64,000 nt of DNA from Paramecium tetraurelia (Eukaryota): contig CT868185.1 of the NCBI GenBank assembly GCA_000165425.1, positions 434,001-498,000 of the forward strand, written 5' to 3'. The notes under the pieces are model-generated. The model saw nothing but the letters and a program-made list of their open reading frames with translations, did not search any database and was not told the DNA's origin. The position numbers and the translations under genes are program-made. This document shows positions 10,816 through 51,366 of this stretch, piece by piece (positions within the stretch are counted from its first letter, which is position 1; each line of letters starts with the position of its first letter).

Positions 10816-13800
10816 TCATTCTCTTGCTCCTTTTTATCTGAATAGTTAAATGATTGATTTGTCATTTTAAGTGATTTTTGAATCCTTTACTATGCATTAA
10901 TTGGCTAATAATAAAGATTATCTGGAAAACGATTTATAACAAATTAGTCTGAAATCTTTTTTAATATTTTCAACTACTTAAATTTAACTCTATTCTTGAT
11001 TTTCATCGTTTTGTTTTATGTTTTAATCATTCTTAATTTATTCAACTGAATATAAATTTATAGATCCATCAGAAATTGCAGCTGCAAAATCAGTTCCATT
11101 AGGACTGAAAGTAAAACTATTCACTTAATTATTCTAATTTTCTATTTTCTAATTTTCTTCAAATTTATTTAAATCCATATCATTAGAGTTTGTTAAATCC
11201 CGAAAATAAATTGTACCAGTTTCACTACCAACAATCAATTGGGTTCCTGAAGGATTGATACTGAAAGTAGGACATTTTTCGAGACTTTTTAATGATACCT
11301 ACCTAATCACAGTTAATTTCTTTGAATCTATAATTTTTACTATTAATATGAGAGCATCATACAATATAGCAAATATTGAATCCACAGATGCTGATACAAT
11401 TGATTTGGCTTCATTATCTTTTATGACTCCTTCTAATTTGCTCTCTATAATATCCAAGGTAGGAGTAAACAATATAGGACTCCCACTTATTAGTGTAATT
11501 AAATTTTAAAAATCTGATGAATATATAAGGCCATTTACTTTTTTATCATTTAACTCTAATGTATGTAATTATTTAATCCTAATTAGTTATTATGAGTCTT
11601 ATGAATTGTAAACTAAAAACTTTCCATTTGCTGAAATACAAAGATTTTTTTTGCCGTAAAATTATAGATCATAAACAGCTACTTATTAACATTTTCCATC
11701 ATTTATAAATTTCCATACCTATATTTTATTATCAAATACACAAACATAGTATTGTTATTTTGAAGCAAATGAAAGGCTTCTCAGAGGTTAAACTTAAAAA
11801 CTGTTGTAAAGTAATTTTATATTATCTAATTCTCTGATATCTAAAATATTGATTTCCTTTTGATTTCCTATTATTAATGTCTTTAAATCTATAAGCATAG
11901 CATTGTTTCCAGACCATTTATCAGTTTTTAAAATTTGCTTTTCCGTTCTTAAGTCCCATATTATAAAGCCTTATTAATTTAATTATACAATATAATCTCC
12001 ATCTTAAGTGGAGGTAAAGTCTAATGGCTATAATTTTTCATCTATTAAAATTTTACTTTATCCAGGATTCAAAAAGCAAATCCTTTTCTTTCCATATTCA
12101 CTATAGTTTAAAACTGATAAATGCTTAGGAGAGAATATATAAATATCACAACTGTCGATTTACCAAATATTTTTTAATTTTAATTTGAAATCTTCTTAAA
12201 CAGAAAAAATACAAATTTTTTCTTTTTAACAACAAACCAGTTCATTGCCTTCATTTATAAATTATAAATTTTTAGTTGATTGTTTTTGAATCAAAGTAAC
12301 ATCTTTAATAATTGATTTCTCATAATTCCATAAATAAATTTTATAATCGCTTGTAGCCAAAGCCACTAAACTTTCATTTTAAGAAAATGCTGTAATGCCA
12401 TTATAATTTTGAATATCTATTTAATACTTTTATTATTTATTGAGATTGACTAAGAAAATTTGAGTATTCTTATGGGAATAAACTATAAAATTGCATGACT
12501 TAGAAAACTATAAAAAGTAATCTAATTATTAAAATTCTAATTTAGTAACAATTTCTTTTTATTTATTTTTTATGTCCCACTTTAATATCTCACAACTTTC
12601 TGAAGCTGTATAGAGAATGTTTGAATCATCTTTGCTAAATTCAAAAAACTTAAGAGTTCCTTCAAAATCTAAATTCACATCTTCTTATTTTTTAGAAATA
12701 TCAACTATAATGATCATAGATCTTTACCTTTAGTAAATAGCTAAATATCGATCTTCCTATGATATAATAGACTGTTGAGAATTGTTAAGATTCTTGATTT
12801 CAGATTGTATTTCTCCAGAAATGCAGTCTATTAATTTTATTTAATCTTAATCCATTAATATAAATTAGTTTTAACTGTTTGATAAATAACAGCTCTAAAA
12901 TTAGATTTTTAGATCAACTAAAGGCATTTACTTTTACATTTAATTAAGATTTGATATGATAATGGCATTACTATTTATTGATACCAAGTAATCTTGGTAA
13001 TCATATTTAATTATATTAATTTAAATAATGGGTGGTTCTATTAAAATTTTCGATTACTTTTTCCAACTATTATTTGTTTTTTACCAAATAATCATAATAT
13101 TTTTATTATCTATTGATAATAATTGTCGACCATAATCCCATGATCTAATCATTACAACTTCAAATTAATGTCCTTCAAGAATATCAGTTTAGTCAGTTGA
13201 TAAATTATGAATTTTAACTAGATTATCATAACCTTAAAATATATAATCCTCATCATCTGACAAACAAATAGGATTGATCCCATATTAAAAGATTTCAAAT
13301 TTTTTATCTTTTTAATCTATTTTATTCAAACTCCAAACTTAAATTTTCGTCACTATTTTTTATTTACTATCTTTTTATTTGCCTCCATCATTTGAAATAG
13401 TAGCAAAACAACCTGATGGAGAAAAATGTAAGAAATCTGGAAATAAATATAGCTCATTTATTTTATAGAATAAAGTTGTCTCCTAAGGAAATTTAACATC
13501 CCACAAACATATTGATCCATCAATACTTCCTGATGCCAACCATTTAGAACAAAAAGAAAATTCTAAACATTTAACAGCCAACTTATGTTATTTTAACATA
13601 ATAATAAAGTTTTTTTCTATTAAATCCCATAAAATAATTGAGCAATCTCCACTACATGAAGCAATAATAAGACCATCTTTTGAGAAGGCAACTTAGTTTA
13701 CACATTGTTAATGTCCTTTTGAAACATTTGATTATTCACTTTATTCAATATTCCATAATTTAATTTATTAGTCATCACTTGCAGAGGCCAAACATTATCC

Positions 13801-16800
13801 ATCAGGAGAAAAAGATAATTAATTAATCTTCCCTGTATGACCTTCTAATACTGCTATTTTCTTTTTAGCATTCACATTCCATAAAAATATCTTTTAATCT
13901 TTGCTGCCAGATGCTAGTAATTTCATGTTCTATGAGTAACTGAGGCATCTAACATTGTCATTGTGATCTCCGAGTAAAGTATTTTCTTTTTTATTAAGAT
14001 TAATCAGATATATACTTTTATCACAACCATAACTAATGATATTTTAATCAATTTGTGCTAGGCAATTTATTATCCCTTAAACAAATTTGTGAATTTTTTT
14101 TTCAAAAAAATCAAATCTATATGTCTTAATATCTGAAGAATATCCAGATATAATTTATGAATTATCAGAAGATATTAAAATAAAATAATTATTTTCACCT
14201 TTTTCATTCAATTAATTTATACTTACTATTTCGGCATTTGATAACCAATTCAAATTCATTAATTTGAGTCTCGTTGATTCCTTAACTGATATATAACCAA
14301 ATGAAGGTGTCACTGATACTTCACCTACATCAAATCCGCCCTGGAGAGAGCAGAGAAATTTTAGTTATTTATTTTCATCAATGGAACTTATCACTTAGTT
14401 AAAGTCTTTTTAGTAATGCAATAAATTGCCATTCCTAGAAATTTAGATTGGGAGTATCTTATTATCATTAATAATTGTCAAATCTTTATAATTTTTAATG
14501 TCATAAAATTTAAAGCAATAACCTTATGAATATCCGTCACTAACTTATTGATAATTACAAGCTATTAATTATCCATCAGAAGAAATTGCGGATTATCTAA
14601 ATAATTCATAAAAAACTTCAAATTTTGAAGATATTAGATCAAAGATCCCTGAACCCTCCTTATTTCGGATAAATATTTTATTATTGCAATCAAAAGAATT
14701 TACTTGAAGTATTTTACTTTTTGGAAACATAAATTTAATTTTTTATTGGGTTTTTATTTCTCTAATTACAAAATCAGAATTCGATATGTAACATATATAG
14801 TCATTGTTACTTGTCCAAGAAAATGAATATAAGTTTTTAATTTGTATAGGTTTGAATCTCATATATATTTTAGGGGTCTTAGATATTAAATAGTCTTATT
14901 GTATTTTCACATTATAAAATTAGAACCTAATCGTTTTTGCCGAGTTTGAGAGAATAACTTTCTTCGCAAATAGTAAAACTAAAGATTTCCTCTTTCGAAC
15001 AAATATTCTACTTAACAATATTTGATTTATTTGAAATTATGCAATGTAAACCATCTTAAAAGAACTCTACATGATTAAGTTTATAATCGATACAAGCTAT
15101 TGATTTCTACTATTTACAATCAAAAATTTCGATACCATTATAATCTTTAGTAACAAGGTATCCATTTTTTAATAATTAACCAAATTATTTTGAAGTAGGA
15201 ATTATTCCTTTTAAAGTGCATTTTGAGAGAGGAGTTATTTTTAATTTTCTCTCCATAAGATATATAAGATTTTGATCATTATCAATTAACAATAATTAGC
15301 TGATTACACTTTAAGGTTTATAAGCATTAATCATCTCAATTTTATTCTCAAAATATCTCCAAACCCTTATGTAATTCCCACCAGTCACAAATAAATTACC
15401 ATTCTTAGAGAAGCTAATACTATTATATGCTGAATCTAAAGGAAGTTTATTATTAACAATTTTCTCTCCCGATGTTTAATTCCAAAATATTATGTTTTTA
15501 TCGCTTAAACATACTAAAGATATTCCATCTGGGCAAAATTGAAATACTAGAGAGCTGTAATTTTAATCCTCAATTTCCAAAACTCTTTCTTCATTCTTGC
15601 TTATGTTCCATAAAATTATTTAATCCTAAATAAATCCTTAAATAATAGCCAAGGTATTATTGTCATATGATACTAAAATAGTTCCCCTAGAGGCCTTATA
15701 TTAATCAAGTATCTTTATTCCAGATCCATTAATTTCATCTTAAATTCTTATTTTATCATCATCGGTCTAAATAATTAATAAGGAGCCATCAGGAGAATAG
15801 ATAATTTATTCTATTTCAATGCGCTCATCTATTTCTTTGAATTTCTAACATTCATAAGGAGCTTTGCTAATATTCCAAAAGTATAAGCTGCCATCCCCAA
15901 GTATTGTAGATAGTATTGGCTTGCAAGGAGAAAAAGCCAGAGCAGAAATTTTTTTTTAATTTTCAATTTATTTATCTATCAGTTTTTTTTCTTTAAAATC
16001 ATATAAAGATATTTATTTGGATTAGCTACTTATCATGGCCATTATTTAATAATTAGCTTAGAGTGAAAATTGTGTTATTTAGATATTATTGAAATAATCT
16101 TATTCTTCCGATTGATTGAAATACTAATTTTTATCATCATAAATAATAATTTCATTTTAACATTGTTCAAATATTAAATCCTAATTATAAAATGAATTTT
16201 TTTATCTATTACTAAGAATTACTTCCTGGAAAGTGTTCAAATCCCAATATCTTACTTTTTTTCCTTTTATTATTAATCTCTATTCATTACTAGTAATATC
16301 AATTTAGGTTATTTCTTAATCAAAATATATACTATTAATAATAGCTTAAGTATTAAGATCTAATATTAATAGTGTTTAATCTTAAACAATAACAGCAAAA
16401 TTAGAATTAGGGAATAAGTAAACATGATAGGAATACTATATATTAGCAAGATAGGCAGAATCATCATACTAAAATTCTCCATAGGCTAAATAGTTTTCTG
16501 TTCCAATGACTATTTCTCTTTCATTGGGTAAGGTTAAATATTAGATTTAATATTCTTTAAACGATAAAACTTAGCATTTACATTTATCTTTCAAATCCCA
16601 TAATAATAGTAAATTTGTACATGCAGATACTAATCTATTTCCTGCCTTACTAAAAGCTAAGGCCTGAATCTTTCCGGTATGACCTACCAAAATCCTTTCA
16701 ACCCCAGCTTTTAATTTTGCTAGTTTAATAGTAGAGTCTGCTAAGCCTAAAGCAATCAATTAATCATCTTATGTCAAAGTGTAAACCAAGATTTCCTATT

Positions 16801-19800
16801 GACACTAAAATATAATATCCTTCGGTTTTTCTGTGATAACTTCCAAATTGCAAATTATTAAAATTCCTGAACTATCAACTGAAACTATTTTTTTTCCATC
16901 TAAAGTGAATTTGACTCCTGTGACTGGATGGTCGTGATAATCTATGGTAGATATCAAAGACTTAATTTATGGATTCTAAATATCCCATAATTTTATAGTT
17001 TTATCTTTACTACCAGAAGCTAGAGTTTTGCTATCAGGTGAAAAGGCAATTGATAATATTTAATCTTAATGACCATCTAATTGTTAAATGACTTTATAAC
17101 TTTCCACATCCCAAAGACTTACTAAATTTCCTTTTCCATTTGATGCAATTAATTTACCATTTGAAGAAAATTCGACAACTTTAACTTGTTCATCTTCTTT
17201 TAAAAATGGTTTTTCTTTACATCTTACATCTTTCCATTCAATATCTGTCAAATTAGCATAATTAAAATTACAAGAATTAATATTAATATTAGTAAATTTA
17301 GATTTACTTAGATCTGCGTTACAAAAACTTAAACCTGAGATATTAGTATCAATTAACTAAATTTCTGAAAAATTTTCATATCCTAAATAAACATCCAATT
17401 AAGATAATAAGAAAATACTATTTGAAGCAGCATATATATATTACTTATTTTTAGATAATTTAACAATATTAATAAGAACTCTTTTTATGTTATCTAGACT
17501 ACCTATTTTGTCTTTAATAAAATTTAATACTCCTTTAAAATGATCCTTGGAAATATTTAATTCAGGTTTATTATATAATTATTTCATCCATCTTTCAATA
17601 TATTTTGCATCTTAATTTTTCTCATTCAAAAATTAAGAGCCAGCTTAAAGCAATAAATCTATTATAAATTTAGCCACATAAAATTCTTAAATAGATTTGT
17701 GAGTAAAGGAATAGATACTTCCTTTAGCGTTTAAGAGAATACAACTTCGTATTAATTTATTATAATCAAGTTCCTGTTATGAATCATTAAAATAATCATC
17801 AAGCCAACCATCATCATTTTATTACCAGTTATAATTATTTGTTAATTTCAATTTTCCTTTTTATTAATACGTGATTTAAGATAGTTAATTTTTAGTCATA
17901 TCTATTGCTAAATTAGATGAAAATTCTAATATATCTATTTAAAAACTTTCCCAATTTGAAATTTTACCTGTCTCTCTTAACTTTTGAATTTGTTAATCAT
18001 GATAAAAATGAATAAAACTCTCATAGAACTCAAATATTGTCAACTTTTTCATCTTTAAGGCTTAAACTACATATTCTATATCCTGACTAGAGATACTAAA
18101 AGACTAATTATCAACTAGTAAGTTTTAATTTTCGATTTTAAGAATGCTAGTTATTGAGTAAAATTAAAAAAATTTTAAGCTTTCCAATTAATCTAAAAGT
18201 TCAGCAGGTTTTGTTTAGATTTTTGAAATTTCAAGTTTCTCAAAATATTAGATATTTTAGCTTTTTCCATCAAAAATTGTTTGGATTACTTAATTATTTT
18301 CTTTTTAATCTAAATTAATTTTGTAATTCTCTTATAAATATTTAGAAAAACTAGATTTTTATATAATACTGAGATAGCTCTAAACAAATCTATTTTTTAA
18401 ATCCACCGAACCTTACTATTTCTTTGCCATATTAGGTAAAACTTAGACAATAATTTCAAACATGAAGGGAGTTGATAATAATTCAGAAATACCTACATTT
18501 TCTATGGCCTTTTCAAATTTATAAGCACTCCACAAAGATGACAAATCTTTCCTGAGGCCTGTAATCTATTCCTCTTTTAAATAATTAAATGGAGAATGCT
18601 ATAAAATTTTGTTAATTAATTCTTCCCTCTAGGAATTTTCAAAAATTGATTCTGATTATTCTTTATATGAACTTTAAATCCTGTTTTAAACTTCTACATT
18701 AACATAGTACCATATTTTTAAAAATTCATCTAAATTAAAGTTTTATTATGAAATCTATTTCAAGAAATCATAAACTGCTCTTATTTTTCTCTTAACACTA
18801 AGTTCAGCATATTGAATTAAATAATTACTTTTTTAAACTGCATCGAAATCCTAGATCTATACTTCTTTTAAATTCCTTATGCTATTCCCATAGAACCAAG
18901 TTTAATAACCCAAAGTGTTTAATATTTCTCTTCTGGTTGTGATGATTATCTTGACTTATTTTTAATTTTCATCAATATTCAAATCATTAATTAACTTATT
19001 TGTAATAATGAGATTTTATTAGATACAATCTTATTTCATTTCATCATAACTATCAAGTATTAAAATGATAAATTCTTTTTTATTTTAAATCGCATCTTTA
19101 AATTCTCTAAGTTAATATTTATCAAATTAATAATTATCAGATTCTAATGCTTATTCAAATAAATTATATTTTGGATTTTTTAAAGTTGGAAGTGATACAA
19201 AGATTGGAATCCATTTCGAATTAATTTCTCTTTATTTCCATAGAAATTCTTCAATTTTTCTAGCTGCTTTACTTTTACCAGAACCAGCATTTCCTGAAAG
19301 TAACATAACATCATTTGATTTAGATTCATCCCAAATAAATTCATTGACTTCACCTGTGAAATCATTCCATTATTCACTCATTAAATTGGTTATTGTTACT
19401 CCATCTTTGGATTTAATACTTTGCCCAGTAACAGGATCATATTCAATAGTTTTTAATTATACATATACAGAATCTACTTCTGCTAATCTAGATTATAATA
19501 ATATCTTTTATTTTCTTATTTCTAATAATTCATCATATCGTTTTCCTTTTAATTTACGAATATCATCACCGACTTAATTTAAACTCTCTTATAAATTATC
19601 AATCTAACTTTTTATTTACTTCACATCTTTTGAGATATCCTTTAAAAATATTAAACTTATATCCATTTTCTCCGACATTTCAGTAATATTATCATTATAT
19701 TGTTCAAGTTCTTCATAAGCTAGCTTTAGTTATTATTTAAGTTGCTCTTTAATTTATGAATTTCCTTCAAGTCTTATTTCTTATGAAATGCTTTCTATGC

Positions 19801-22800
19801 TGTTGATTCTTAATTTTATTTCTTATTTTATTTACTCTGATGTAGATTTGATATCCTAAGAAAAAAAAAGTTTTTACATTTCAATTAATTCCTTATTTTT
19901 CAATAGATTTCTGACTCTTTAATCTTTTTCAAAAACCCAAAGGTATTGAATCAGTTTTGATGAAAACTCTACCATTTTGTCTTCTTTAATTCCTTACTAT
20001 AACTTTATTAAATTAAAAGCTAAGCATTCTCTAATTTTATAATCATTGCTTAAAATCAAATACATCAAATATCGACTTTTTTATTTTTACTTATTCGCAT
20101 AGGTTATTGATTATATTTAAGTATAAAGGGTCTAAATTTTGAGGTATTTTATCCGAACTTTATTATCTTAATTCAAAGAAAGCTAAAGTTTCTTATAAAG
20201 TTGATTCAACTTACTCAATTTATTAATCATTTCCTCTTTCAATTTAATGATCTTATTAATCATCCTCTTGTTTACTTTAAATGATACATTTGCAACTCTC
20301 TCTCTCTTCTTAACTTTATCCCTTTAATTTTTCAATAAAATTAATAATTGAAGTTTTAATTTAAAATTTGGATTCTACTTGTTACATTTATGTATTGCAG
20401 TTATTGACATGAACTTAAATTTCTTCATTATCTGGTTATTAAAGTTAATTTATAATTAACATTAATAATTGTTCTAATAATTTCAGTAATTTATTAGTAT
20501 CCTTTATCATTTTCAAATCTTTATCAACACAAAAATGACAGAAATCTAAATGCTTATTCTTTCTGATCCAATTTTAGAAAGTCAATTTTTTGACATCTGC
20601 CAGACTATTATCAAACTCTCCTTAATTATTTTGAATTTCTCTTATAACATTATCATATTTTTCCATTTAATTGTTTAAAGCCTCAAAGTCATAATATTCA
20701 TTCTAATTTTATAAAACGATAAATTGAGCTTCTTGCATGAATTTAATAACTTATGATTTGATCGTTTTGGTTTATTAGCTTATAATATTTTCTTATTCAT
20801 TTTGGATCATCTAATAATCTGTTTTTATTTATTAAAGGAGTTATTTTTTTTTATCTTTAATATTATTACTTCCTTTATCCAGGTCTTTTGATTTCAAAAT
20901 ATATTCTAATTTTTCCTTTTATTATGTTAACTACTTGATTAAAATTAATTTAAAATCTTAATAAAATTTTTATTGTTCTTGAATGGCTAAACGTTTCTCC
21001 TTCTCTAAATTATAATCAAATGTGTTAATTTTATATTAGTGGATTTAGCAAAATTGTTTCATTAGTTTTAATATTTAGAGACTAAAAGTACAATTTCTAT
21101 AAATTTTCTCAATATCCTTTTTATTTGCAACTTTTTTTTGACCCAAATCAAATCTATCCGAAAAATTAGTAACTAGTTATTACCTTAGTGTTTTAATCCA
21201 TTAACCTGAACATATAGTATTTGACATAGCTTATATTTATAAAGGAGGAATTTTAATATTGTAATCATGTGTTTTAATACTTGATGCTGAGAAACAAAAT
21301 TTTTGTTAAAATTCCTTTATATTTATTATGCACTATTATAATATTAATGATATTTCGGAATTTTATTAAGAATTCAGGTGAATTTGAATCTAAAATTTGG
21401 AATTTACGTCATCTAAATCTTACTTTTTTGATATTGGATTTAAAGTAATTTCAGATAGATAACTCAAATACTCTACCACTTTTAGAAAATTTGAAACAAA
21501 ATCTTCCAAGAAGGCTTAAAATTTGACCTTAATAAATTCTTCAATACTCTAAAAAATCTACTTTAGTTTTTCTTAAACGTCAATCTTAAATTTATCAACG
21601 CAAGGTAAAAGCAACTTTAATTTTTCAAAGTCAATATTAGATCTTTCTATGACAAAAATGAGATAATATAAGGCCTATTTATATCCATCTAAAATTTATT
21701 TTCTAAAAACAATATAACCATCTTAGAGTAATTTGATTTAAAGCTATGTATTATCCTATTAAGTAAAATAATCTGTAAATGAATCTTTCATTTATTAGTA
21801 AAGAAGAACTAATTCATCTAACTAAGAATTAAATCTTTCAATTTACTTTTCTATAAATAATACATCATTATTTTGTAAAACTATTTCATAATCCTTTATA
21901 GTAATTTCGTGCTTATTTTTAAAGCTAAAATCTTTATAGAAATTCCAAAGGTTAATTTACTGAGAAAATTAACCTTTTAATAGAGAATCTGATATTAATT
22001 TAAACTTGGGAATACTCTATTTTTCCATTAAGTTGTTTATTTCTTTGCTAAAATATTTTACTTGATTTTGAAATAACACTGCAGACCCTTAATTTCTATT
22101 CTATGGAAGACTAAGAATTAAGTTATTTTCAATTAAATTATTCCACATTGATTATTATTCTATTGGAGAACCTTTAACAATTTCAAATTTATCGAGAATG
22201 GGTCTATATGCTAAAATATCCATTATCATTGATATCCAACTAAAATGAATGATCCAATTATCTGAATTTAGAATATATTATTAAAATGCATCTTTTAGTT
22301 ATTTCAATTAATTATAGACTGAGTACTAAGATTTTAATTGCCTCACGATAGTCCATTTAAGAGTTTGGAATAAATAATAAGTAGCATATACCTCTTCAGG
22401 ATATAATACTTTGTCTTTATATTGTAAAAATAAAAATTTAGCTCCTTCAATAAGACTTGGGATTAAGTCTTCAGTAGGTGACATTGCCAAAGCTGACTAA
22501 GCTACATTTTTAACAATATTTATTAATAAATTTTTTCCTTCTTCTGAATTGGTTTGACAATTCATCAACATTATTTTCATAAGAGTTATTTCATATTCTA
22601 TTCCTGTATTCCATACATTTGCTTATTCAATGCTCAATTACCCTTTAAATTCCTCTACATCTTGTAATAATTCTTATTGCATAGTTAATTCCATTTTTCG
22701 ATCCTCATTCTGTATTTAAAATGAATATATAATTCTCAAAAAATCATTACAAATTTAAAGAACTTAATAACATAAAAACCATGAAGATCTTAAATATATG

Positions 22801-23225
22801 GGAAGAATTTTTAGCAATTCCCTAAAAGAATTCAAAGATTTTGTATATATTGATTAAGTTAAATTTTGGTTAACGCAACAAGTATTTAAATGTTCTCTAT
22901 TATACATAAACCATTAAAATGCAATTATTACTTCATTTCTTTGTTAGGGATCAATTAAAAGTGAAGCTTTATTATTGATAATGCTAACATAATTTTCAAG
23001 TTTAATCAATAAATCATTGGGTACACCAATAATTAACTTTTCTTCAACTTTTGAAGTTGGTTTTGATTATCCACAGCCTCCTCCTCTTAATTGAATTTCA
23101 AATTATTATATAGTTCCCTTAACAAAAGTTGCACAAAATTTTGACTTTTGTGGCTGAGGATTCAACACATCTGAAAAAAGACTGCTATTGTAGCTATCCT
23201 TGCAATTTACCAATTTGATATTCAT
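10816..23225 (-). CDS. Giant NACHT-pentapeptide-WD40 protein, paralogue A2 (~4135 aa after correcting two apparent +1 frameshifts)
   Basis: Begins MNIKLVNCKDSYNSSLF...[15 protein letters not shown] at ATG 23225. Walker A GNAGSGKS at ~19270-19295, pentapeptides ~17230-17400, WD40s ~11050-17200. Ends SIIQLFRQKGARE-TGA (10816-10818). Single extra bases at ~20053 and ~14836 relative to paralogues; 12410-2=12408 nt is a multiple of 3. Confidence 0.85.
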
Positions 23226-23487
23226 GATACTTTTGAAATATTTATTTAAATAATAGAAAGAGTTTCGTTTTTATTTGTATTTGAATATAATATAATAGAT
23301 ATATTTTCCTAGATTTATTGTATAAGTTTATTAATGTTTGTCCTAACATTGGAAAAATAATTTAAATTAATATCTATTTTACAAATGAAATAAATTATAT
23401 ATATAAACAAGACATAAAAATAATTAACCAGATTAAAAACTGTCTTTAAAAACGAATTAATTTAATACTGAATATTTTTTTATATAT

Positions 23488-25973: not shown

Positions 25974-28900
25974 TCATTCTCTTGCTCCTTTTTATCTGAA
26001 TAGTTAAATGATTGATTTGTCATTTTAGGTGATTTTTGAATCCTTTACTATGCATTAATTGGCTAATAATAAAGATTATCTGGAAAACGATTTATAACAA
26101 ATTAGTCTGAATTCTTTTTTAATAGTTTCAGCTACTTAAATTTAAGTCTATTCTTAATTTTCATCGTTTTATTTGATGTTTTAATCATTCTTAATTTATT
26201 CAACAGAATATAAATTTATAGATCCATCATAAATTGCTGCTGCAAAATCGGTTCCATTAGGACTGAAAGTAAAACTGTTCAATTAATTATTTTAATTTTC
26301 TATTTTCAAAATTGGTTTAATTTTATCTAAATGGTCAGAACTTGCTAAATCCCATAGATATATTGATCTAAATTAATTGCCAGCAATTAATAGAGTTCCT
26401 AAGGGATTTATGACTGAAGAAAAACACTAATCTTCACATTCAATTTTTCTAATCATAGTTAATTTAGTTTTATCTATAATTTTAACAATTAATATGTAAT
26501 ATCTGTATGAAATGGCAAATATTGAATTGATGGATGATGAACTTATTGATAGTGCTTCGCTAGCTGTCATTATGCTATCTAATTTACATTTTATATTTTC
26601 TAAAGTTGAAGTAAACAATTAAGGACGTCCATCTATTATTGTCATCAAATTTTAGAAATCTGATGAATATTAAAGTTCATTTATTTAATCATTGATTAAC
26701 TCTTCAGTATATAATTATTTGATCCTAATTAAATTTTATGAATCTTCTTAATTGTAAACTATAAAATTCCCATTTGCTGAAATAACAGGATTTGATTATT
26801 TAATATATTATATATCATAAACAGCTACTTATTAACATTATCCATCATTTAAAAGTTTCCATACTTTTATTTTTTTATCAAATCCACAAACAAAATATGC
26901 CTATTTTTATGCAAATGAGAGACTTCTTATAGGTTTTTCAAAATAAATTGATGAAAGTAATTTAATATTAAGTATTTCTTTAATGTCTAAAATATTGATT
27001 TTATGCTAATTTGCTATTACCAATATCTTTAATTCAATAAGCATAGCATTAGTTCCAGACCATATGTCAGTATTTAACAGTTACTTTTAGTTTTTTAAGT
27101 CCCATATGATAAAGCCTTATTAATTTAATTATACAATATAGTCTCCATCATAAGTTGAGTAAAATTGTAAAGGCTGCTATTGTTCATCTTATAAAATCTT
27201 ACTTTATCCAGAATTCAAAGAGCGGATCCTTTTAATTCCATGATAACTATAAAAAAAAACTGATAAATGCATGGGACAGAAAGTATATCTATCACAATTC
27301 TCTATCTACCAAATATTTTTTAGTTTTAATGAAAAATCTTCCTAAACAGAAAAAATACAAATTGTTTCTTTTTAACAACAAACCAGTTCAGTGTCATAAT
27401 TTATAAATTATAAATCGTGAATTGATTGTTTTTGAATCAAAGTAATTTCTTTAATAATTGATTTCTCATAATTCCATAAATAAATTTTGCAATTTCTGGT
27501 AGCCAAAGCTACTACAATTTCATTTTAAGAAAATGCTGCAATGCCGTTCAAATTTTGAATATCTATTTAATACTTTTATTAATCATTGAGATTGACTAAG
27601 AAAAGCTAGGTATTATTAAGAGAATAAACTATAAAATTGCATGGCTTAGAAAACTTTAAAAAGTAATCTAAATATTAAAATTCTAATTTAGTAACAATTT
27701 CTTTTTATTTATTTTTTATGTCCCACTTTAATATCACACAACTTTCTGAAGCTGTATAGAGAATGTTTGAATCATCTCTGCTAAATTCAAAAAACTTAAG
27801 AGCTTCTTCAAAATCTAAATTCATATCATCTTATTTTTTAGAAATATCAACAATAATGATCATAGATCTTTATCTTTAATAAATTGCTAAATATCGATCA
27901 TCATATGATATAATAGACTGTTCAGAATTGTTAAGATTCTTGATTTCAGATTTTATTTCTCCAGAAATGCTGTCTATTAATGTTATTTAATCTTAACCAA
28001 TTAATATAAATTACTTTTAGCTGTTTGATAAATAACTACTCTAGAATTAGATATCTATATCAACAAAGGGCAATTACTTTTACATTTAATTGAGATTTGA
28101 TATGATAATAGCATCACTATTTATTGAAACCAAGTAATCTTGGTAATCAAATTTAATTATATCAATTTAAACGATTGTTGGTTCTAATAAAATTTATGAT
28201 TACTTTTTCCAACTATTGTTTATTTTCTACCAAATAATCATAATATTATTAGTATCTATTGTTAATAATTATCGACCATAATCCCATGATCTAATAATTA
28301 CAACTTCTGATTAATGTCCTTCAAGATTTTCAGTTAAATCAGTTGATAAATTATGAACCCTAACCTGATTATCATAACCTTAAAATAAAATGTCATCTTC
28401 ATCTGAAATACAAATGGGATTGCTCATATATTTAGAGATTTTAAATTTTTTATCTTTTTTATCTATTTTATCCAAACTCCAAACTTAAATTTTAGTAATT
28501 GTTTGCATTCTACTATTATTAAATATACCTCTATCATTTGAAAGTGTAGCAAAGCATCCTGATGGAGAAAAACATAAGATATTTGGATATAAATACAACT
28601 CATTTATTTTAAAGTATAAAGTTGTCTCCTATGGAAATTTAACATCCCAAAAATATAGTAATCCATCATTACATACTGATGCTAACCACTTAGAACAAAA
28701 AGAGAATTCTATACATAGTACCTCTTAAGTATGATCTTCTAACTTAATTATAAAATTTTTTTCTAATAAATCCCATAAAATAATTGAGTGATCTTTACTA
28801 CATGATGCAATAATAAGACCATCCTTTGAGAAGGCAACTTAGTTTACACATTTTTAATGCCCTTTTGAAATATTTGATTATTCACTTAATTCTATATTCC

Positions 28901-31900
28901 ATAATTTAATATATTTGTCATTACTTGCAGAGGCCAAACATTATCCATCAGATGAAAAAGATAATTAGTTAACAAAATCTGTATGACCTTCAAATACTGC
29001 TATTTTCTTTTTAGCGTTCACATCCCACAAAAAAATCTTTTAATCAATGCTACCAGATGCTAGTAATCTCATTTTCTATGAGTAGCTGAGGCATGTAACA
29101 TCTCTATCATGTTCTCCTAGTAGAGTATCTTCAGATTTATTAAGTTTAATCAAATATATCTATGTATAACTACCAACACTAATAGTATTAGAATCAATTT
29201 ATTCTAAACTATTTATTGTTCCAGAAACTTTTCGGGAAACATTATTATCAACATTTAAATCCAGCCTATGTGTCCTTAGTTATGAAGATTCTCCAATAAT
29301 GATTGATAAGTTATCAAAAGATGTTGCAAAAGAATTTTAATTTACAAAATATTGTATTTTTTAACTTATGCTTATTATTTAGGCTTATGACATCCAATTC
29401 AAATTTATTAATTTGAGTCTCTTTGATTACTTAATAAATATAAAACCAAAAGCAGGAGTTACAGACACTTCATCTACATCAGATCCACATTGGAAAGAAC
29501 AGAGAAGTTTTAGTTATTTATTTTCATCAAGAGAACCTACTATTGCTTAGTTATGCTCTTTATAGTAATGCAATAAATTGCCACTCTTAGAAAATTTGAT
29601 TGGGAATATTTTACTATCATTAATTACTGTCAAGTCTTTTTTATTTTGAATGTCATAAAATTTAAAGCAGTAACTTTATTAGTACCCATTACTAGCCTAT
29701 TAATAATTACAAGCTATTAACTATCCATCAGAAGAAATTGCAGATTATCTAAATAATTCATAAAAATATTCAAATTTTGAAGATATTAGATCAAAGATAC
29801 CTGAACCCTCCTTATTTCGGATAAATATTTTATTATTGCATTCAAAAGAGTTTACTTGAAGTATTTTACTTTTTGGAAACAAACACTTAATTTTTTATTG
29901 GGTTTTTATTTCTCGAATGACAAAATCAGAATTCGATATGTAACTTATATAATCATTGTTACATGTCCAAGAAAATTATTCTAAAGACTAATTTGTATAA
30001 GTTTAAATCTCATATATATTTTAGGGGTCTTAGATATTAAATAGTCTTATGGTATTTTCACATTATAAAATTAGAACCTAATCGTTTTTGGTGAGCTTTA
30101 GAGAATAACTTTCTTCGCAAATAGTAAAACTAAAGATTTCCTCCTTCGAATAAATATGCTGCTTAGAAATATTCATATTAACTGAAATTATACAATGCTA
30201 ACCATCTTGAAAGAACTGTACATGATTAAGTTTATACTTGATATTAGATATTGATTTCTACTATTTCCAGTCAACAATTGATATACCATCAGATTAATCA
30301 TTAGTAACAATCTATCCATTTGTTAAAAATTAAACAACTTTTTTAGAGGTAGGAATTATTCCCTTTAAAGTGCATTTTGAGAGAGGAGTTATTTTTAATT
30401 TTCTCTCCATAAGATATATAAGATTTTGATCATTATCAATTAACAATAATTTGCTGATTACACTTTAAGGTTTATAAGCATTAATCATCTCAATTTTATT
30501 CTCAAAATATCTCCAAACCCTAATGTAATTCCCACCAGTCACAAATAAATTACCATTCTTAGAGAAACTAATACTATTATATGCTGAATCCAAAGGAAGT
30601 TTATTATTAACAATTATCTCTCCTGATGTTTAATTCCAAAATATTATGTTTTTATCGCTTAAACATACTAAAGATATTCCATCTGGGCAAAATTGAAATA
30701 CTAGAGAGCTGTAATTTTAATCCTCAATTTCCAAAACTCTTTCTTCATTCTTGCTTATGTTCCATAAAATTATTTAATCCTAACTTTGTCTTTGATTAAT
30801 AGCTAAGGTATTATTATCATACGATATTAAAATAGTTCCTCTTGACGGCTTATATTAATCTAATATCTTTATTTCCGATCCATTATTATTTTCATCTAAA
30901 ATCCTTATTTTTTAATCATTAGTCTAAATAATTAATAAAGATCCATCAGGAGAATAGTTGATTTATTCTATTTGAACGCCATCATCTATTTCATTGAATT
31001 TCTAACACTAATAAGGAGCTATGCTAATATTCCAAAAAGATAGGCTTCCATCTTCAAATATTGTAGATAATATAGGCTTGCAAGGAGAAAAAGCCAGAGC
31101 AGAAATTTTTTTTTAATTTTCAATTTATTTATCTATCAGTTTTTTTTCTTTAAAATCATATAAAGATATTTATTTGGATTAGCTACTTATCATGGCCATT
31201 ATTTAATAATTAGCTTAGAGTGAAAATTGTGTTATTTAGATATTATTGAAATAATCTTATTCTTCCGATTGATTGAAATACTAATTTTTATCATCATAAA
31301 TAATAATTTCATTTTAACATTGTTCAAATATTAAATCCTAATTATAAAATGAATTTTTTTATCTATTACTAAGAATTACTTCCTGGAAAGTGTTCAAATC
31401 CCAATATCTTACTTTTTTTCCTTTTATTATTAATCTCTATTCATTACTAGTAATATCAATTTAGGTTATTTCTTAATCAAAATATATACTATTAATAATA
31501 GCTTAAGTATTAAGATCTAATATTAATAGTGTTTAATCTTAAACAATAACAGCAAAATTAGAATTAGGGAATAAGTAAACATGATAGGAATACTATATAT
31601 TAGCAAGATAGGCAGAATCATCATACTAAAATTCTCCATAGGCTAAATAGTTTTCTGTTCCAATGACTAATTCTCTTTCATTGGGTAGTGTCAAATATTA
31701 GATTTAATATTCTTTAAACGATAAAACTTAGCATTTACATTTATCTTTCAAATCCCATAATAATAGTAAATTTGTACATGCAGATACTAATCTATTTCCT
31801 GCCTTACTAAAAGCTAATGCCTGAATCTTTCCAGTATGACCTATTAAAATCCTTTCAGCCCTTCTTTTTGGATGAATTAGTTTTATGCTAGAGTCGTCTA

Positions 31901-34900
31901 ATCCTAAGGCGATCAATTAATCATCAGAAGTAAAGGTGTAAACCAAGATTTCCTATTGACACTAAAATATTATATCATCTGGTTTTTCTGAGATGCTTTC
32001 AAAATTGCAAATTACAAAGATTCCTGAACTATCGACTGAAGCTATTTTTTTTCCATCTGAAGTGAATTTGATTGCTGTAACTTGATAATCATGATAGTCT
32101 ATATTAAAAATCAACTACTTTATTTCTGGATTCTAAATATCCCATAATTTTATTGTTTTATCCTTACTAGCAGAGGCTAGAGTTTTACTATCAGGTGAAA
32201 AGGTAACTGCTAATATTGTATCTTGATGACCATCCAATTGTTAAATGACTTTATAACTTTCCACATCCCAAAGACTTACTAAATTTCCTTTTCCATTTGA
32301 TGCAATTAATTTACCATTTGAAGAAAATTCGACAACTTTAACTTGTTCATCTTCTTTTAAAAATGGTTTTTCTTTACATCTTACATTGTTCCATTCAACA
32401 TCTGTCAAATTTGCATAATTAAAATTACAAGAATTAATATTAATATTGGTAAATTTAGATTTACTTAGATCTGCGTTACAAAAACTTAAACCTGAGATAT
32501 TTGTATCAATTAACTAAATTTCTGAAAAATTTTCGTATCCTAAATACACATCCAATTAAGATAACAAGAAAATACTATTTGAAGCAGCAAAAATATAGTT
32601 CTCATTTGTAGATAATTTAACAATATTAATAAGAATGTGTTTAATGTTATCTTGGTTACTTAATTTCTCATTGATAAATGTTAATACTCCTTTAAAATGA
32701 TCCTTTGAAATATTTAATGCAGGTTTATTATATAATGATTCCATCAATCTGGTAATATATTTCTAATCCAAATTTTCTTCATTCAAAAATTAAGAACCAG
32801 ATTAAAGCAGCAATTCTATAATGTATTTAGCAACATAAAATTCTTAAATAGATTTGTGAGTAAAGGAATAGATACTTCCTTTAGCGTTTAAGAGAATACA
32901 ACTTCGTATTAATTTATTATAATCAAGTTCCTATTATGAATCATTAAAATAATCATCAAGCCAACCATCATCATTTTATTACCAGTTATAATTATTTGTT
33001 AATTTCAATTTTCCTTTTTATTAATACGTGATTTAAGATAATTAATTTTTAGTCATTTCTAATGCTAAATTAGATGAAAATTATAGAATATCTATTTAAA
33101 AGCTTTCCCAATTTGAAATTTTACCTGTCTCTCTTAACTTTTGAATTTATTAATCATGATAAAAATGAATGAAACTCTCATAGAACTCAAATATTGTCAA
33201 CTTTTTCATCTTTAAGGCTTAAACTACATATTCTATATCCTGACTAGAGATACTAAAAGACTAATTATCAACTAGTAAGTTTTAATTTTCGATTTTAAGA
33301 ATGCTAGTTATTGAGTAAAATTAAAAAAACTTTAAGCTTTCCAATTAATCTAAAAGTTAAGTAGCTTTTGCTTAAAATTCTGATTTATTTAGTTACTCAT
33401 AATATTTCATTTTTTGGCTTTTTCCATCAAAAGTTGGTTTGATTACCTAATTATTTTCTTTTTGATCTAAATTATTTTTGTAATTCTCTTATAAATATTT
33501 AGAGAAATTAGATTTTTAGATAATATTGAGATAACCCTAAACAAATCTATTTTTTAAATCCACAGAACCTTACTATTGCCTTGCCATATTAGGTAATACT
33601 TAGACAATAATTTCAAACATGAAGGGAGTTGATAATAAATCAGAAATACCTACATTTTCTATGGCCTTTTCAAATTTATAAACACTCCATAAAGATGACA
33701 AATCTTTCCTGAGCCCTATAATCTATTCGTCTTTTAAATAATTAAATGGAGAATACTCTAAAATTCTCTTGATTAAATCTTCCCTCTAGGAATTTTCAAA
33801 GATTGATTCTGATTATTCTTTATATGAACTTTAAATCCTGTTTTAAACTTCTACATTAACATAGTACCATATTTTTAAAAATTCATCTAAATTAAAGTTT
33901 TATTATGAAATCTATTTCAAGAAATCATAAACTGCTCTTATTTTTCTCTTAACACTAAGTTCAGCATATTGAATTAAATAATTACTTTTTTAACCTTTAT
34001 CAAAATCTTAGATCTAAACTTCTTTTAAACTCCTTATGCTATTCCCATAGAACCAAGTTTAATAACCCAAAGTGTTTAATATTTCTCTTCTGGTTGTGAT
34101 GATTATCTTGACTTATTTTTAATTTTCATCAATATTCAAATCATTAATTAACTTATTTGTAATAATGAGATTTTATTAGATACAATCTTATTTCATTTCA
34201 TCATAACTATCAAGTATTAAAATGATATATTCTTTTTTATTTTAAATCGCATCTTTAAATTCTCTAAGTTAATATTTATCAAATTAATAATTATCAGATT
34301 CTAATGCTTATTCAAATAAATTATATTTTGGATTTTTTAAAGTTGGAAGTGATACAAAGATTGGAATCCATTTCGAATTAATTTCTCTTTATTTCCATAG
34401 AAATTCTTCAATTTTTCTAGCTGCTTTACTTTTACCAGAACCAGCATTTCCTGACAGCTACCGATAACATCATTTGATTTAGATTCATCCCAAATAAATT
34501 CATTAACTTCACCTGTGAAATCATTCCATTATTCACTCATTAAATTGGTTATTATTACTCCATCTTTGGATTTAATAATTTCCCCAGTCACAGGATCATA
34601 TTCAATGGTTTTCAATTAAACATATACAGAATCTACTTCTGCTAATCTAGATTATGATAATATCTTTTATGTTCTTATTTCTAATAATTCATCATATCTT
34701 TTTCCTCTTAATTTACGAATATCATCCCCAACTTAATTTAAACTCTCTTATAAATTATCAATTTAATTTTTTATTTACTTCACATCTTTTGATATATCCT
34801 TTAAAAATATTAAACTAATATCCATTTTCTCTGACATTTCAGTAATATTATCATTATATTGTTCAAGTTCTTCATAAGCTAGCTTTAGTTTATTATTTAA

Positions 34901-37900: not shown

Positions 37901-38400
37901 TTACAAATTTAAAGAACTTAATAACATAAAAACCATGAAGATCTTAAATAAATGGGAAGAATTTTTAGCAATTCCCTAAAAGAATTCAAAGATTTTGTAT
38001 ATATTGATTAAGTTAAATTTTGGTTAACGCAACAAGTATTTAAATGTTCTCTATTATACATAAACCATTAAAATGCAATTATTACTTCATTTCTTTGTTA
38101 AGGATCAATTAAAAGTGAAGCTTTATTATTGATAATGCTAACATAATTTTCAAGTTTAACCAATAAATCATTGGGTACACCAATAATTAACTTTTCTTCA
38201 ACTTTTGAAATTGGTTTAGCTTATCCACAGCCTCCCCCTCTTAATTGAATTTCAAATTATTATATTGTTACATTATCATGAGTTTCAATTAGTTAATAAA
38301 ATTATGAGTTTTGTGGTTATGATTTCAAAATATTAGAAACAGGGCAATTATTTTAGCTATCCTTATAAATTTACAAGTTTGGATCGAATACGTTATTCAT
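25974..38400 (-). CDS. Giant NACHT-pentapeptide-WD40 protein, paralogue A3 (~4140 aa after correcting three apparent frameshifts; possibly a pseudogene or consensus errors)
   Basis: Begins [20 protein letters not shown]...[15 protein letters not shown] at ATG 38400 and ends LFRQKGARE-TGA (25974-25976). Extra bases relative to paralogues: +1 at ~37690, +1 at ~34890, +2 at ~34455-34463. 12427-4=12423 nt is a multiple of 3. Confidence 0.8.
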
Positions 38401-50700: not shown

Positions 50701-51366
50701 AACATTTGCTTATTCAATTTCTAATTGAGTGTTGAATTCTGATAACTTCTATAAGTAATCCTATTATACTGAAGCTTCAAAATATCTTTTAGGATTGTTT
50801 AATTAGAATGCATACATAATCCTTAATAATTCATTACAAATTTATAAAATTTAATAGCAAATAAATCCAGAAATTCTTAGGTAAGTTGCAAGCACTGTCA
50901 AAATATTATCAAAATTTTCTTAAACTAACTCATAAATTTTGTCAGTTTCTTTTTGATCTATACAAAAATAATTCAAATGTTCTCTGTTATGAATAAACCA
51001 TTACACTTTCATTAATAATTCATTTCTTTTGGTAGGGTCTCCTATAAATTTAGCTCCTTCTACTATTATGGTAAGGGTGTCACTCAGATTTGTTCTATAG
51101 TTGTCAGGTAACGATGATGAAATCATTAAATTTTAGTCTGCCTTTACTTTCTTATCAATCACACAATCTACTTTTGATTATCCGCATCCTCCACCTCTTA
51201 AATTAATCGTATTCTTGTAGTAGATTTGCTTTTAAGAATTTTGACTATCGATATATGATACATGTATTAGAAAGTCTTATAAAGCTTAGAATAGTATTTC
51301 AATCATTTCTGTATGTATTTCTCTATTTTAAGTTACCATTAATTCATTCATCAATGTGGCTAACAT
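38731..51366 (-). CDS. Giant NACHT-pentapeptide-WD40 protein, diverged paralogue B (~4211 aa)
   Basis: 12636 nt, same frame at start, LRGGGCGQSK (51172-51201), Walker A (~47350-47375), pentapeptides (~45300-45430), WD40s (SVSQDGSILASASDDKLIRLW at ~41700-41760) and the end SIIELFLQKGACQ-TGA. Frame spot-checked, not codon by codon. Alternative in-frame ATGs at 51351, 51339 and 51306. Confidence 0.88.

What the first reader, a model, noticed from the sequence alone, without database searches (positions are those of the whole stretch)
23061..23225. Ubiquitin-like LRGG site fused to a cryptic myristoylation/palmitoylation N-terminus on giant NLR-like proteins
Seen: all three paralogues with a visible 5' end have a variable 45-55 aa leader followed by LRGGGCGQ[S/A]K (A2 23061-23090, A3 38215-38244, B 51172-51201). 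The leader of B does not resemble those of A2/A3, yet the motif is kept with synonymous codon changes (GGA GGA GGC TGT / GGG GGA GGC TGT / GGT GGA GGA TGC), which points to protein-level selection. Established: LRGG is the ubiquitin/NEDD8 C-terminus after which DUB/UBL proteases cut. G-C-x-x-S-K fits the N-myristoyltransferase consensus with an adjacent palmitoylatable Cys, but needs a free N-terminal Gly, and there is no Met before it here. Inference: cleavage at LRGG|G would unmask a dual-acylation signal and send a STAND receptor to membranes, i.e. a protease-licensed membrane-targeting switch. The cutter could be a host DUB or one from an intracellular bacterium. I cannot tell whether this has already been described.
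Basis: partly seen in the sequence, partly recalled or inferred. Interest (0 to 1): 0.9.

Follow-up and report, generated by a model that had tools for sequence, protein, structure and literature searches.

The report
Masked lipid-anchor signal on Paramecium NLR-like giants
A family of giant NACHT-WD40 (NLR-like) proteins in Paramecium carries an invariant LRGG-GC motif behind a fast-evolving, disordered leader, and the simplest reading is a leader cut off to expose a myristoyl/palmitoyl membrane anchor, though cleavage has not been shown.

Summary
All three motif copies lie at the stated coordinates on the minus strand under the ciliate code. The core DNA pattern occurs 3 times in the window, against 0 expected.

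The genes are Paramecium (aurelia complex) NACHT-WD40 giants. Among 49 retrieved relatives that cover the site, 45 have LRGGG. It is followed by Cys in 42 of 45 and by S/T/A/N three residues later in 41 of 45. Leaders are 7-138 aa, and none starts with MG.

A recalled N-myristoyltransferase pattern fits 40 of 45 only if the cut falls after LRGG. It fits 23 of 45 one residue earlier and 0 of 45 one residue later.

The "ubiquitin-like" part holds for the tetrapeptide only. Leaders are predicted disordered, have no ubiquitin Pfam hit, and can be 7 aa long.

Orthologous leaders keep their length and start codon but diverge about twice as fast as the domain behind them. They look translated and weakly constrained.

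No cleavage, acylation or 5'-end RNA evidence could be obtained. The best reading (about 0.5) is a propeptide removed after LRGG that exposes a dual-acylation signal. That makes it a new variant of the "embedded acylation site" known from AvrPphB effectors and caspase substrates. The protease is unknown.

The parts
23091..23225 (-). A2 leader, 45 codons from the only in-frame ATG to the codon before Leu
   Evidence: AF2 pLDDT is below 50. It is 76% identical to the A3 leader at aligned DNA columns, with 12- and 9-nt indels; the body is 97% identical.
23061..23090 (-). A2 motif LRGG|GCGQSK. The proposed scissile bond lies between bases 23079 and 23078.
22206..23018 (-). A2 N-terminal all-alpha (solenoid-like) domain, residues about 70-340 of P0001
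   Evidence: AF2 pLDDT is 85-97 and all helices. Pfam gives no hit. Foldseek gives no hit at E<=1e-3. The best VIA Z is 10.1, to generic helical repeats.
10816..23225 (-). A2 gene span, three overlapping ORFs that are probably joined by tiny introns
   Evidence: ORF list. A3, its close paralogue, has such an intron.
38245..38400 (-). A3 leader, 52 codons
   Evidence: It is the same as the start of public model P0020.
38215..38244 (-). A3 motif LRGG|GCGQAK
25974..38400 (-). A3 gene. The public model has 4104 aa, with a roughly 19-nt intron at 37647-37665.
   Evidence: tblastn of P0020 on the window gives 99.6-99.96% identity.
51202..51366 (-). B leader, 55 codons from the ATG of the public model. 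The frame is open back to 51474.
   Evidence: The start and the motif NE.M.TQN are shared with the P. sonneborni orthologue.
51172..51201 (-). B motif LRGG|GCGQSK
   Evidence: A contig of run X3 covers 50943-51260 without a joint.
38731..51366 (-). B gene, intronless, 4211 aa
   Evidence: P0004 maps at 100% identity over 4211 aa in one piece.
46882..47391 (-). NACHT domain of B, residues 1326-1495
   Evidence: PF05729, E 3e-13, 50.4 bits, cut-off 26.7
38734..45249 (-). WD40 / beta-propeller arrays of B, residues about 2040-4211
   Evidence: Many WD40-type Pfam families, for example PF00400 at E 7e-59

Best explanation
The leader is translated as a short, disordered, fast-evolving propeptide. 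An endoprotease that reads the linear ubiquitin-tail-like tetrapeptide cuts after Leu-Arg-Gly-Gly. This frees an N-terminal Gly-Cys-x-x-Ser/Thr-Lys. N-myristoyltransferase acylates the Gly post-translationally, and the neighbouring Cys is then S-acylated, which tethers the giant NACHT-WD40 protein to a membrane by its N-terminal alpha-solenoid end.

Shown here:
- The motif is invariant across the family.
- Only the cut after LRGG gives a good fit to the acylation pattern.
- No family member starts with Met-Gly.
- There is no ubiquitin fold in the leader.
- The leader looks coding.

Inferred: cleavage, both acylations and membrane targeting.

The cutter is unknown. I think a host cysteine protease (USP-, UCH- or Ulp-like) with peptide-level LxGG specificity is more likely than a pathogen enzyme, because the site is invariant across paralogues that are only about 28% identical. 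No lineage has replaced the leader by a simple Met-Gly start. I infer from this that the masked state or the post-translational timing matters.
For: (1) Motif conservation. 45 of 49 relatives that cover the site have LRGGG. P1' Gly is 45/45 (fixed by the LRGGG regex that selected the rows), P2' Cys 42/45 (Ser 2, Phe 1), P5' S/T/A/N 41/45 and P6' K/R 27/45. No flanking column exceeds 15/45. Rows were picked by the regex LRGGG, so those five columns are 100% by construction. The 45/49 is the test.

(2) Register. The recalled PROSITE-type NMT pattern fits 40/45 after LRGG, 23/45 after LRG and 0/45 after LRGGG. A Cys lies within 10 aa of the new end in 47/47.

(3) Every conserved residue gets a role: L-R-G-G for the protease, G for NMT, C for S-acylation and S/T at P5' for NMT.

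(4) None of the 45 starts with MG. Homology to P0001 starts at query residue 35-46, at or just before Leu46, in 22 of 47 hits.

(5) The leader looks translated.
- Orthologues keep leader length (52/52/52, 55/55/54, 61/61, 11/11/11, 7/7) and the first residues. Identity is 35-38%, against 69-80% for the domain.
- The A2/A3 indels are 12 and 9 nt and the ATG is conserved.
- There are 0 in-frame TGA against 16 in the other two frames over the same 528 nt. This is partly by construction.

(6) There is no room for an intron that would place ATG before GGN. No GTA...TAG lies at the site. A contig of X3 runs unbroken over 50943-51260 (that X3 is RNA is a guess). Public models have no intron there.

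(7) AF2 puts the leader, motif and linker (residues 1-64) below pLDDT 50, so the site would be accessible.

(8) Precedent. AvrPphB, ORF4 and NopT expose embedded N-myristoylation and S-palmitoylation sites by proteolysis, with conserved P1' Gly and P5' Ser (PMC2708883, passages read). Post-translational myristoylation of cleaved proteins is established in human cells (PMC4200515, abstract in listing).
Against: - There is no direct evidence for cleavage or lipidation.
- No protease is known that cuts LRGG behind a 7-aa leader in ciliates. DUBs normally need the ubiquitin fold (established knowledge).
- 5 of 45 fail the NMT pattern: Phe at P2' in P0022, and Leu or Phe at P5' in P0026, P0043, P0049 and P0057.
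- The stretch after the cut is only weakly basic. Median net charge is +1 over 20 aa, and it is +1 or more in 32/47.
- The assembled X3 contigs stop short of every in-frame ATG. B's contig ends at 51260 and the nearest ATG is at 51306. Depth is 0 in 51269-51700 and in 38361-38821. So the RNA data do not show that the leader's start codon is in the mRNA.
- I could not test whether the motif occurs outside this family.
Confidence: 0.5

Rival explanations
1. Protease tripwire. This is a special case of the cleavage model and is counted inside its 0.5. The LRGG site is a bait for an LxGG/ubiquitin-tail-specific protease from an intracellular bacterium or a virus, such as a CE-clan, OTU or PLpro-like enzyme. 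Cleavage during infection unmasks the acyl anchor and so licenses the NLR-like receptor.
For: - The family is an expanded, tandemly clustered NACHT-WD40 family.
- No lineage has swapped the leader for Met-Gly, which suggests the masked state matters.
- A ubiquitin-tail mimic is a bait that a deubiquitinating effector could not easily evolve away from (inference).
- NLRP1 is activated by viral protease cleavage of a 'tripwire' (PMC7857732, listing and start of abstract).
Against: - The site is invariant in 45/49 members across deep paralogues. Known tripwires evolve fast.
- No FIIND-like release module turned up in the Pfam results I could see.
- No candidate pathogen protease was examined.
- Most bacterial DUB effectors need the ubiquitin fold (established knowledge).
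Confidence: 0.12
2. The motif is functional but not cleaved. The leader stays on, and LRGGGC acts as a flexible hinge with an internally S-acylated Cys, or as a short docking motif for a partner.
For: - The motif lies in a disordered stretch.
- A Cys is always nearby (47/47).
- S-acylation needs no free N-terminus (established knowledge).
- Orthologous leaders keep their length, which could mean the leader has a role of its own.
Against: - It does not explain why Gly follows LRGG without exception. It also does not explain why S/T/A/N sits exactly at +4 from that Gly (41/45), or why the register specificity is 40/45 against 23/45 and 0/45.
- Leaders of 7 to 138 aa with no shared sequence between paralogues fit a part that is discarded better than a part that is used.
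Confidence: 0.2
3. Self-cleavage at Gly|Cys by an N-to-S acyl shift, as in Hint/intein, Ntn-hydrolase or FIIND-like autoproteolysis. This would leave an N-terminal Cys.
For: - The residue after GGG is Cys in 42/45 and Ser in 2/45, and both are nucleophiles.
- Autoproteolysis is known in NLRs, for example the FIIND of NLRP1 (recalled).
Against: - One member has Phe there.
- The nucleophile would sit in a disordered linker of variable length, about 20-30 aa in front of the folded domain, not inside a fold.
- The first 2000 aa of B show no Hint, peptidase or FIIND family.
- It does not explain L-R or the P5' Ser.
Confidence: 0.05
4. Gene-model artefact. The leader is not translated, and the real N-terminus arises in some other way, such as an unrecognised micro-exon or unusual initiation.
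For: - With TGA as the only stop in AT-rich DNA, open frames of about 50 codons are cheap.
- The X3 contigs do not reach any in-frame ATG, and depth is 0 upstream.
- The RNA raw reads gave no coverage of either 5' end.
Against: - Conserved residues (LRGGGC, then LP.NF...RNE...QWF) lie upstream of the next in-frame Met, so translation must start before the motif.
- There is no splice-site pair at the motif, and the X3 contig is unbroken.
- The ATG and the leader length are conserved between species.
- The A2/A3 indels keep the frame.
- In-frame TGA count is 0 against 16 in the other frames.
Confidence: 0.08

Closest known systems
Embedded acylation sites of AvrPphB-family type III effectors (AvrPphB, ORF4, NopT)
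   Same: An N-terminal leader is removed by proteolysis. The new end starts Gly-Cys with Ser at P5' and is N-myristoylated and S-palmitoylated, which directs it to the plasma membrane (PMC2708883, passages read). The Paramecium family has the same P1' Gly / P2' Cys / P5' Ser logic.
   Different: Those are bacterial papain-like proteases that cut themselves; the G-D-K|G site is recalled, not read. Here the protein is a host STAND NTPase, Pfam finds no protease domain in its first 2000 aa, and the site is LRGG.
Post-translational N-myristoylation of caspase-cleaved proteins (BID, huntingtin and others)
   Same: An internal Gly becomes an NMT substrate only after endoproteolysis (PMC4200515 and PMC9880554, abstracts in the listing; BID is mentioned in PMC2708883).
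   Different: The cut there follows Asp and is made by caspases during apoptosis. Here the P4-P1 residues are LRGG, and the site is invariant across a whole gene family.
Ubiquitin / NEDD8 / ISG15 precursors and natural ubiquitin fusions
   Same: All share the C-terminal LRGG followed by the cut (established knowledge). A metagenome contig, L022, even shows a true ubiquitin domain ending ...LRLRGG directly followed by GCGTEF.
   Different: No beta-grasp lies upstream here. The region is disordered in AF2, has no Pfam ubiquitin hit in 9/9, and the leader can be as short as 7 aa.
LxGG-specific viral and CE-clan proteases (coronavirus PLpro; adenovirus protease consensus (M/L/I)xGG|x)
   Same: They cut linear LxGG sites without a ubiquitin fold, so such a specificity exists (recalled, not tested here).
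   Different: Those substrates are viral polyproteins. No such protease was identified in Paramecium or in its symbionts here.
N-acylated plant NLRs (e.g. RPS5) and NLRP1/CARD8 protease tripwires
   Same: These are NLR-type receptors whose N-terminus is lipid-anchored (RPS5, recalled), or whose N-terminal disordered region is a protease target (PMC7857732, listing).
   Different: RPS5 starts directly with Met-Gly. NLRP1 signals by degradation of its N-terminal fragment and needs a FIIND. Neither combines cleavage with unmasking of an acyl anchor.

Membership tests
Ubiquitin-like protein / ubiquitin fusion | Beta-grasp fold of about 76 aa directly upstream of the Gly-Gly | tested here: not met
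   AF2 gives residues 1-64 of A2 pLDDT below 50 with no strands. No ubiquitin-family Pfam hit in 9 of 9 members, including leaders of 90-138 aa. Leaders can be as short as 7 aa.
Ubiquitin-like protein / ubiquitin fusion | C-terminal tail Leu-Arg-Gly-Gly before the cut | tested here: met
   45 of 49 members that cover the site have LRGG(G).
Ubiquitin-like protein / ubiquitin fusion | Cleavage after Gly-Gly by a DUB or ULP | not testable with these tools
   This needs protein chemistry.
N-myristoylated, S-acylated proteins (NMT substrates) | Free N-terminal Gly (Met-Gly start or proteolytic neo-N-terminus) | tested here: not met
   0 of 45 start with Met-Gly, and the Gly is 11-142 residues inside the primary translation. 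It would be met only after the proposed cut, which is not testable here.
N-myristoylated, S-acylated proteins (NMT substrates) | G-{EDRKHPFYW}-x-x-[STAGCN]-{P} (PROSITE-type pattern, recalled) | tested here: met
   40 of 45 fit in the LRGG| register. 23/45 and 0/45 fit in the neighbouring registers.
N-myristoylated, S-acylated proteins (NMT substrates) | Cys close to the Gly for S-acylation | tested here: met
   Cys is at P2' in 42/45, and a Cys lies within 10 aa in 47/47.
Embedded acylation site exposed by proteolysis (AvrPphB-like) | Conserved P1' Gly and P5' Ser/Thr behind a removable leader | tested here: met
   P1' Gly is 45/45 (fixed by the LRGGG regex that selected the rows), and P5' S/T/A/N is 41/45. 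Compared with PMC2708883.
Embedded acylation site exposed by proteolysis (AvrPphB-like) | Cis-acting papain-like protease domain that makes the cut | tested here: not met
   Pfam on the first 2000 aa of B finds NACHT and weak AAA-type hits only. The N-terminal domain is an alpha-solenoid.
NLR-like STAND NTPase (NACHT-WD40) | NACHT NTPase domain | tested here: met
   PF05729, E 3e-13, 50.4 bits, cut-off 26.7, residues 1326-1495 of B. PF05729 is precomputed in most relatives.
NLR-like STAND NTPase (NACHT-WD40) | C-terminal repeat sensor region | tested here: met
   WD40 / beta-propeller families, for example PF00400 at E 7e-59.
NLRP1/CARD8-type protease tripwire | FIIND autoprocessing module that releases an effector after N-terminal cleavage | tested here: inconclusive
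   No FIIND appears among the 7 families in residues 1-2000 or the 25 of 31 families shown for the whole protein. Six families were not displayed.
NLRP1/CARD8-type protease tripwire | Cleavage by a pathogen protease | not testable with these tools
   No pathogen sequence or assay was available.

The most novel reading that the evidence does not exclude
The invariant LRGG is a ubiquitin-tail decoy. A deubiquitinase-like or LxGG protease delivered by an intracellular bacterium or virus cuts it and removes the leader. The unmasked Gly-Cys is then myristoylated and palmitoylated, which drives the giant NACHT-WD40 receptor onto a membrane and switches it on. That would be effector-triggered immunity in a ciliate, using a bait the pathogen cannot evolve away from without losing its activity on ubiquitin.
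Probability: 0.12. Interest if true: 0.9.

Novelty: new variant of a known kind. Interest (0 to 1): 0.62.

Why it matters
If the cut and the acylation happen, this would be the first host NLR-like family whose membrane anchoring depends on removal of a propeptide at a ubiquitin-tail-like site.

It would also point to a protease in ciliates, or in their parasites, that reads LRGG without a ubiquitin fold. And it would give a handle on what the large NACHT-WD40 expansions of Paramecium do, which is unknown.

The prediction is sharp and cheap to test. Six invariant residues each have a predicted role, and the expected product is one defined neo-N-terminal peptide.

I found no description in print. 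A full-text search for LRGGGC, LRGGGCG or RGGGCG returned 9 unrelated papers. LRGG with myristoylation returned 3 unrelated papers. Paramecium with NACHT returned 32 papers, of which 15 were listed and none was on this topic by title or abstract. Subscription journals are not covered by that library.

Tried and rejected
- **RNA evidence.** No RNA holder was listed for the stretch. I laid three oligo-dT RNA-seq runs of the species label. Only 10, 27 and 6 reads of 58 nt fell on 13.8 kb, and none fell at either 5' end. So there is no transcript start, no strand and no splice information. Contigs of run X3 cover the motif of B, but that X3 is RNA is only a guess.
- **Micro-exon or intron giving Met-Gly.** I checked this by eye on all three copies. 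No GTA...TAG pair exists, and no AG acceptor lies in a phase that would give ATG-GGN-TGY. Rejected.
- **Whole genome.** None is held, so I could not scan the proteome for the motif in other families.
- **Motif-only protein search.** A 10-residue match cannot reach E<=10 in 5.8 billion sequences, and the 'longer' option only reaches about 6 times the query length. I dropped this step. Whether the motif occurs outside this family therefore stays open.
- **Metagenome DNA scan.** The pattern TTAAGAGGNGGNGGNTGYGG gave 72 loci with GC 0.30-0.70. None looks like Paramecium and none belongs to the family. That is about the number expected by chance.
- **Relatives outside Paramecium.**
  - A profile search with alignment A3 among longer proteins found 3 proteins, all Paramecium.
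  - phmmer over 1.84 billion representatives found 47 hits.
  - 19 of the 20 looked up carry names, and all 19 are from the P. aurelia complex.
  - So there are no relatives elsewhere that might start directly with Met-Gly-Cys.
- **Fold of the N-terminal domain.** Foldseek against the PDB gave a best E of 0.025. VIA-align gave a best Z of 10.1 to designed or generic helical repeats, below the level that is meaningful for helical repeats. No function can be inferred from the fold.
- **ESM Atlas.** I did not pursue it.
- **Earlier findings of this scan.** None by place, words or sequence.

Full report
**What is there**

The window is AT-rich (GC about 0.24). It is coding on the minus strand only if TAA and TAG are read as Gln. 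Three giant genes show their 5' ends.
- A2 at 23061-23090
- A3 at 38215-38244
- B at 51172-51201

. The core DNA pattern occurs 3 times in the window and 0 times in each of 100 shuffles. The copies differ inside the LRGGGC codons only at synonymous third positions. A fourth copy, A1, has its 5' end inside a run of N at 7422-7571.

**Whose genes**

The best relatives are named Paramecium octaurelia, sonneborni, primaurelia, pentaurelia and tetraurelia. Most are labelled 'NACHT domain-containing protein' and have about 4100-4300 aa.
- B is identical to one public model of 4211 aa and has no intron.
- A3 matches a P. tetraurelia model of 4104 aa at 99.6-99.96%, with a roughly 19-nt intron.
- B has a NACHT domain at residues 1326-1495 (E 3e-13, above the Pfam cut-off) and very large WD40 arrays.

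The label 'giant NLR-like protein' is therefore sound.

**How general the motif is**

I collected 67 proteins from a word-indexed search and an exhaustive phmmer search of 1.84 billion representatives (47 hits). Of these, 45 have LRGGG within the first 250 residues. P0003 and P0020 are the same gene, so this is 44 distinct genes. Of the other 22:
- 18 are fragments that begin behind the site.
- Two have decayed forms (IRGCGCC, AGGGC).
- Two have no motif.

That makes 45 of 49.

I anchored the rows on the motif, so the five motif columns are fixed by my regex. The next residues then read:
- Cys in 42/45 (Ser 2, Phe 1)
- Gly in 30/45
- any residue
- S/T/A/N in 41/45
- K/R in 27/45

The eight columns before Leu never exceed 15/45. 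Leaders run from 7 to 138 aa. None of the proteins starts with Met-Gly. Homology to A2 begins at query residue 35-46, at or just before Leu46, in 22 of the 47 hits. All 19 named proteins among the 20 looked up come from the P. aurelia complex. A profile search found nothing outside Paramecium.

**Is the leader translated?**

Several lines say yes.
- Conserved residues lie upstream of the next in-frame Met, so translation must start before the motif.
- No splice-site pair lies at the motif that could put ATG in front of the Gly codon.
- Public models have no intron there.
- A contig of run X3 runs unbroken over 50943-51260. That X3 is RNA is only a guess.
- Orthologous leaders keep their length and their first residues: 52/52/52, 55/55/54, 61/61, 11/11/11 and 7/7. 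Between P. tetraurelia and P. sonneborni they are only 35-38% identical, against 69-80% for the next 200 residues.
- Between the paralogues A2 and A3, the DNA is 97% identical from the Leu codon on and 90% in the last 30 nt of the leader. It is 71% in the rest of the leader and 63% in the 5' flank. The two indels are 12 and 9 nt, and the ATG is conserved.
- The three leaders hold 0 in-frame TGA against 16 in the other two frames. This is partly by construction.

Against this, the RNA data do not reach any in-frame ATG. Depth is 0 in 51269-51700 and in 38361-38821, and the three true RNA-seq runs gave only 10, 27 and 6 reads over 13.8 kb.

I conclude that the leader is most likely translated and only weakly constrained.

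**Is it ubiquitin-like?**

Only the tetrapeptide is.
- AlphaFold2, with a 27-sequence alignment, gives pLDDT below 50 for residues 1-64 and predicts no strand there.
- A confident all-helical domain follows at about residues 70-340, with pLDDT 85-97.
- Pfam finds no ubiquitin family in 9 of 9 members tested, including those with leaders of 90-138 aa.
- A leader of 7 aa cannot be a beta-grasp.

The helical domain has no Pfam hit, no Foldseek hit at E<=1e-3, and only generic helical-repeat matches (best Z 10.1).

**Mechanism**

The pattern of invariance is what a masked dual-acylation signal predicts. With a cut after LRGG, the new end G-C-x-x-[S/T/A/N]-[K] fits the recalled PROSITE-type NMT pattern in 40 of 45 members. 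One residue earlier it fits 23 of 45, and one residue later 0 of 45. A Cys lies within ten residues in 47 of 47. Each of the six invariant residues then has a role.

The same logic is documented for the AvrPphB effector family. There, proteolysis exposes 'embedded' sites with conserved P1' Gly and P5' Ser, and these sites are then myristoylated and palmitoylated (PMC2708883, passages read). It is also documented for caspase substrates (PMC4200515, abstract).

Cleavage itself, the lipids and the protease are all still inferred. Because the site is invariant across paralogues that are about 28% identical, I favour a host protease with peptide-level LxGG specificity. The tripwire reading, in which a pathogen protease cuts, remains possible. 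NLRP1 is the precedent (PMC7857732, listing).

Weaker rivals are an uncleaved hinge or docking motif with an internally S-acylated Cys, self-cleavage at Gly|Cys, and a gene-model artefact. The rival sections weigh each of them.

**Verdict**

This is a new variant of a known kind of device. I found no description of it in the searchable literature. It can be tested directly with a handful of point mutants and one expected peptide.

Noticed in passing
window 7422-7571 and 2485-2888: Two runs of N, of 150 and 404 bases. The first hides the leader and motif of a fourth paralogue, A1. Its reading frame resumes right after the gap with [19 protein letters not shown].
   Followed up: partly
window about 7572-9200, minus strand: A decayed fragment lies between A1 and A2. 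It resembles the C-terminal WD40 end of gene B (for example ...SCAFNSRKQEIALKLSNQV...IHNFEDFTGEIIQFQSSEILVIANRNKLQFLRINKIEK) and is broken by several in-frame TGA codons. It looks like a pseudogene remnant in the tandem cluster.
   Followed up: no
window 22900-23300 against 38054-38475, minus strand: There is a sharp change in A2/A3 similarity about 30 nt upstream of the Leu codon. Identity is 97% downstream and 63-71% in the leader and 5' flank. This looks like a gene-conversion boundary that keeps the motif and body uniform while the leaders drift.
   Followed up: partly
L022 (metagenome contig, GC 0.37), motif at 1439-1458 +: A true ubiquitin domain (...[37 protein letters not shown]) is fused directly to a protein that starts GCGTEFADITQK. 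It is a natural ubiquitin fusion whose product would begin Gly-Cys. Its P5' residue is Glu, so it does not fit the NMT pattern.
   Followed up: no
window 37647-37665, minus strand: The apparent frameshift between the first two A3 ORFs is a roughly 19-nt intron in the public gene model, typical of Paramecium's tiny introns. The overlapping ORFs of A2 probably have the same cause.
   Followed up: partly
window 1-7935, minus strand (A1), compared with P0025: P0025 is a P. tetraurelia model whose contig has the same length as that of B's own model P0004. It matches A1 at only 83-88%, and every other copy in the window at less than 90%. The tandem cluster of these giants probably continues beyond the window.
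   Followed up: no
window 23226-23660, minus strand: The A2 frame stays open for 189 codons upstream of the Leu codon, although the only in-frame ATG is 45 codons upstream. This is probably chance in very AT-rich DNA, but I did not examine it further.
   Followed up: no
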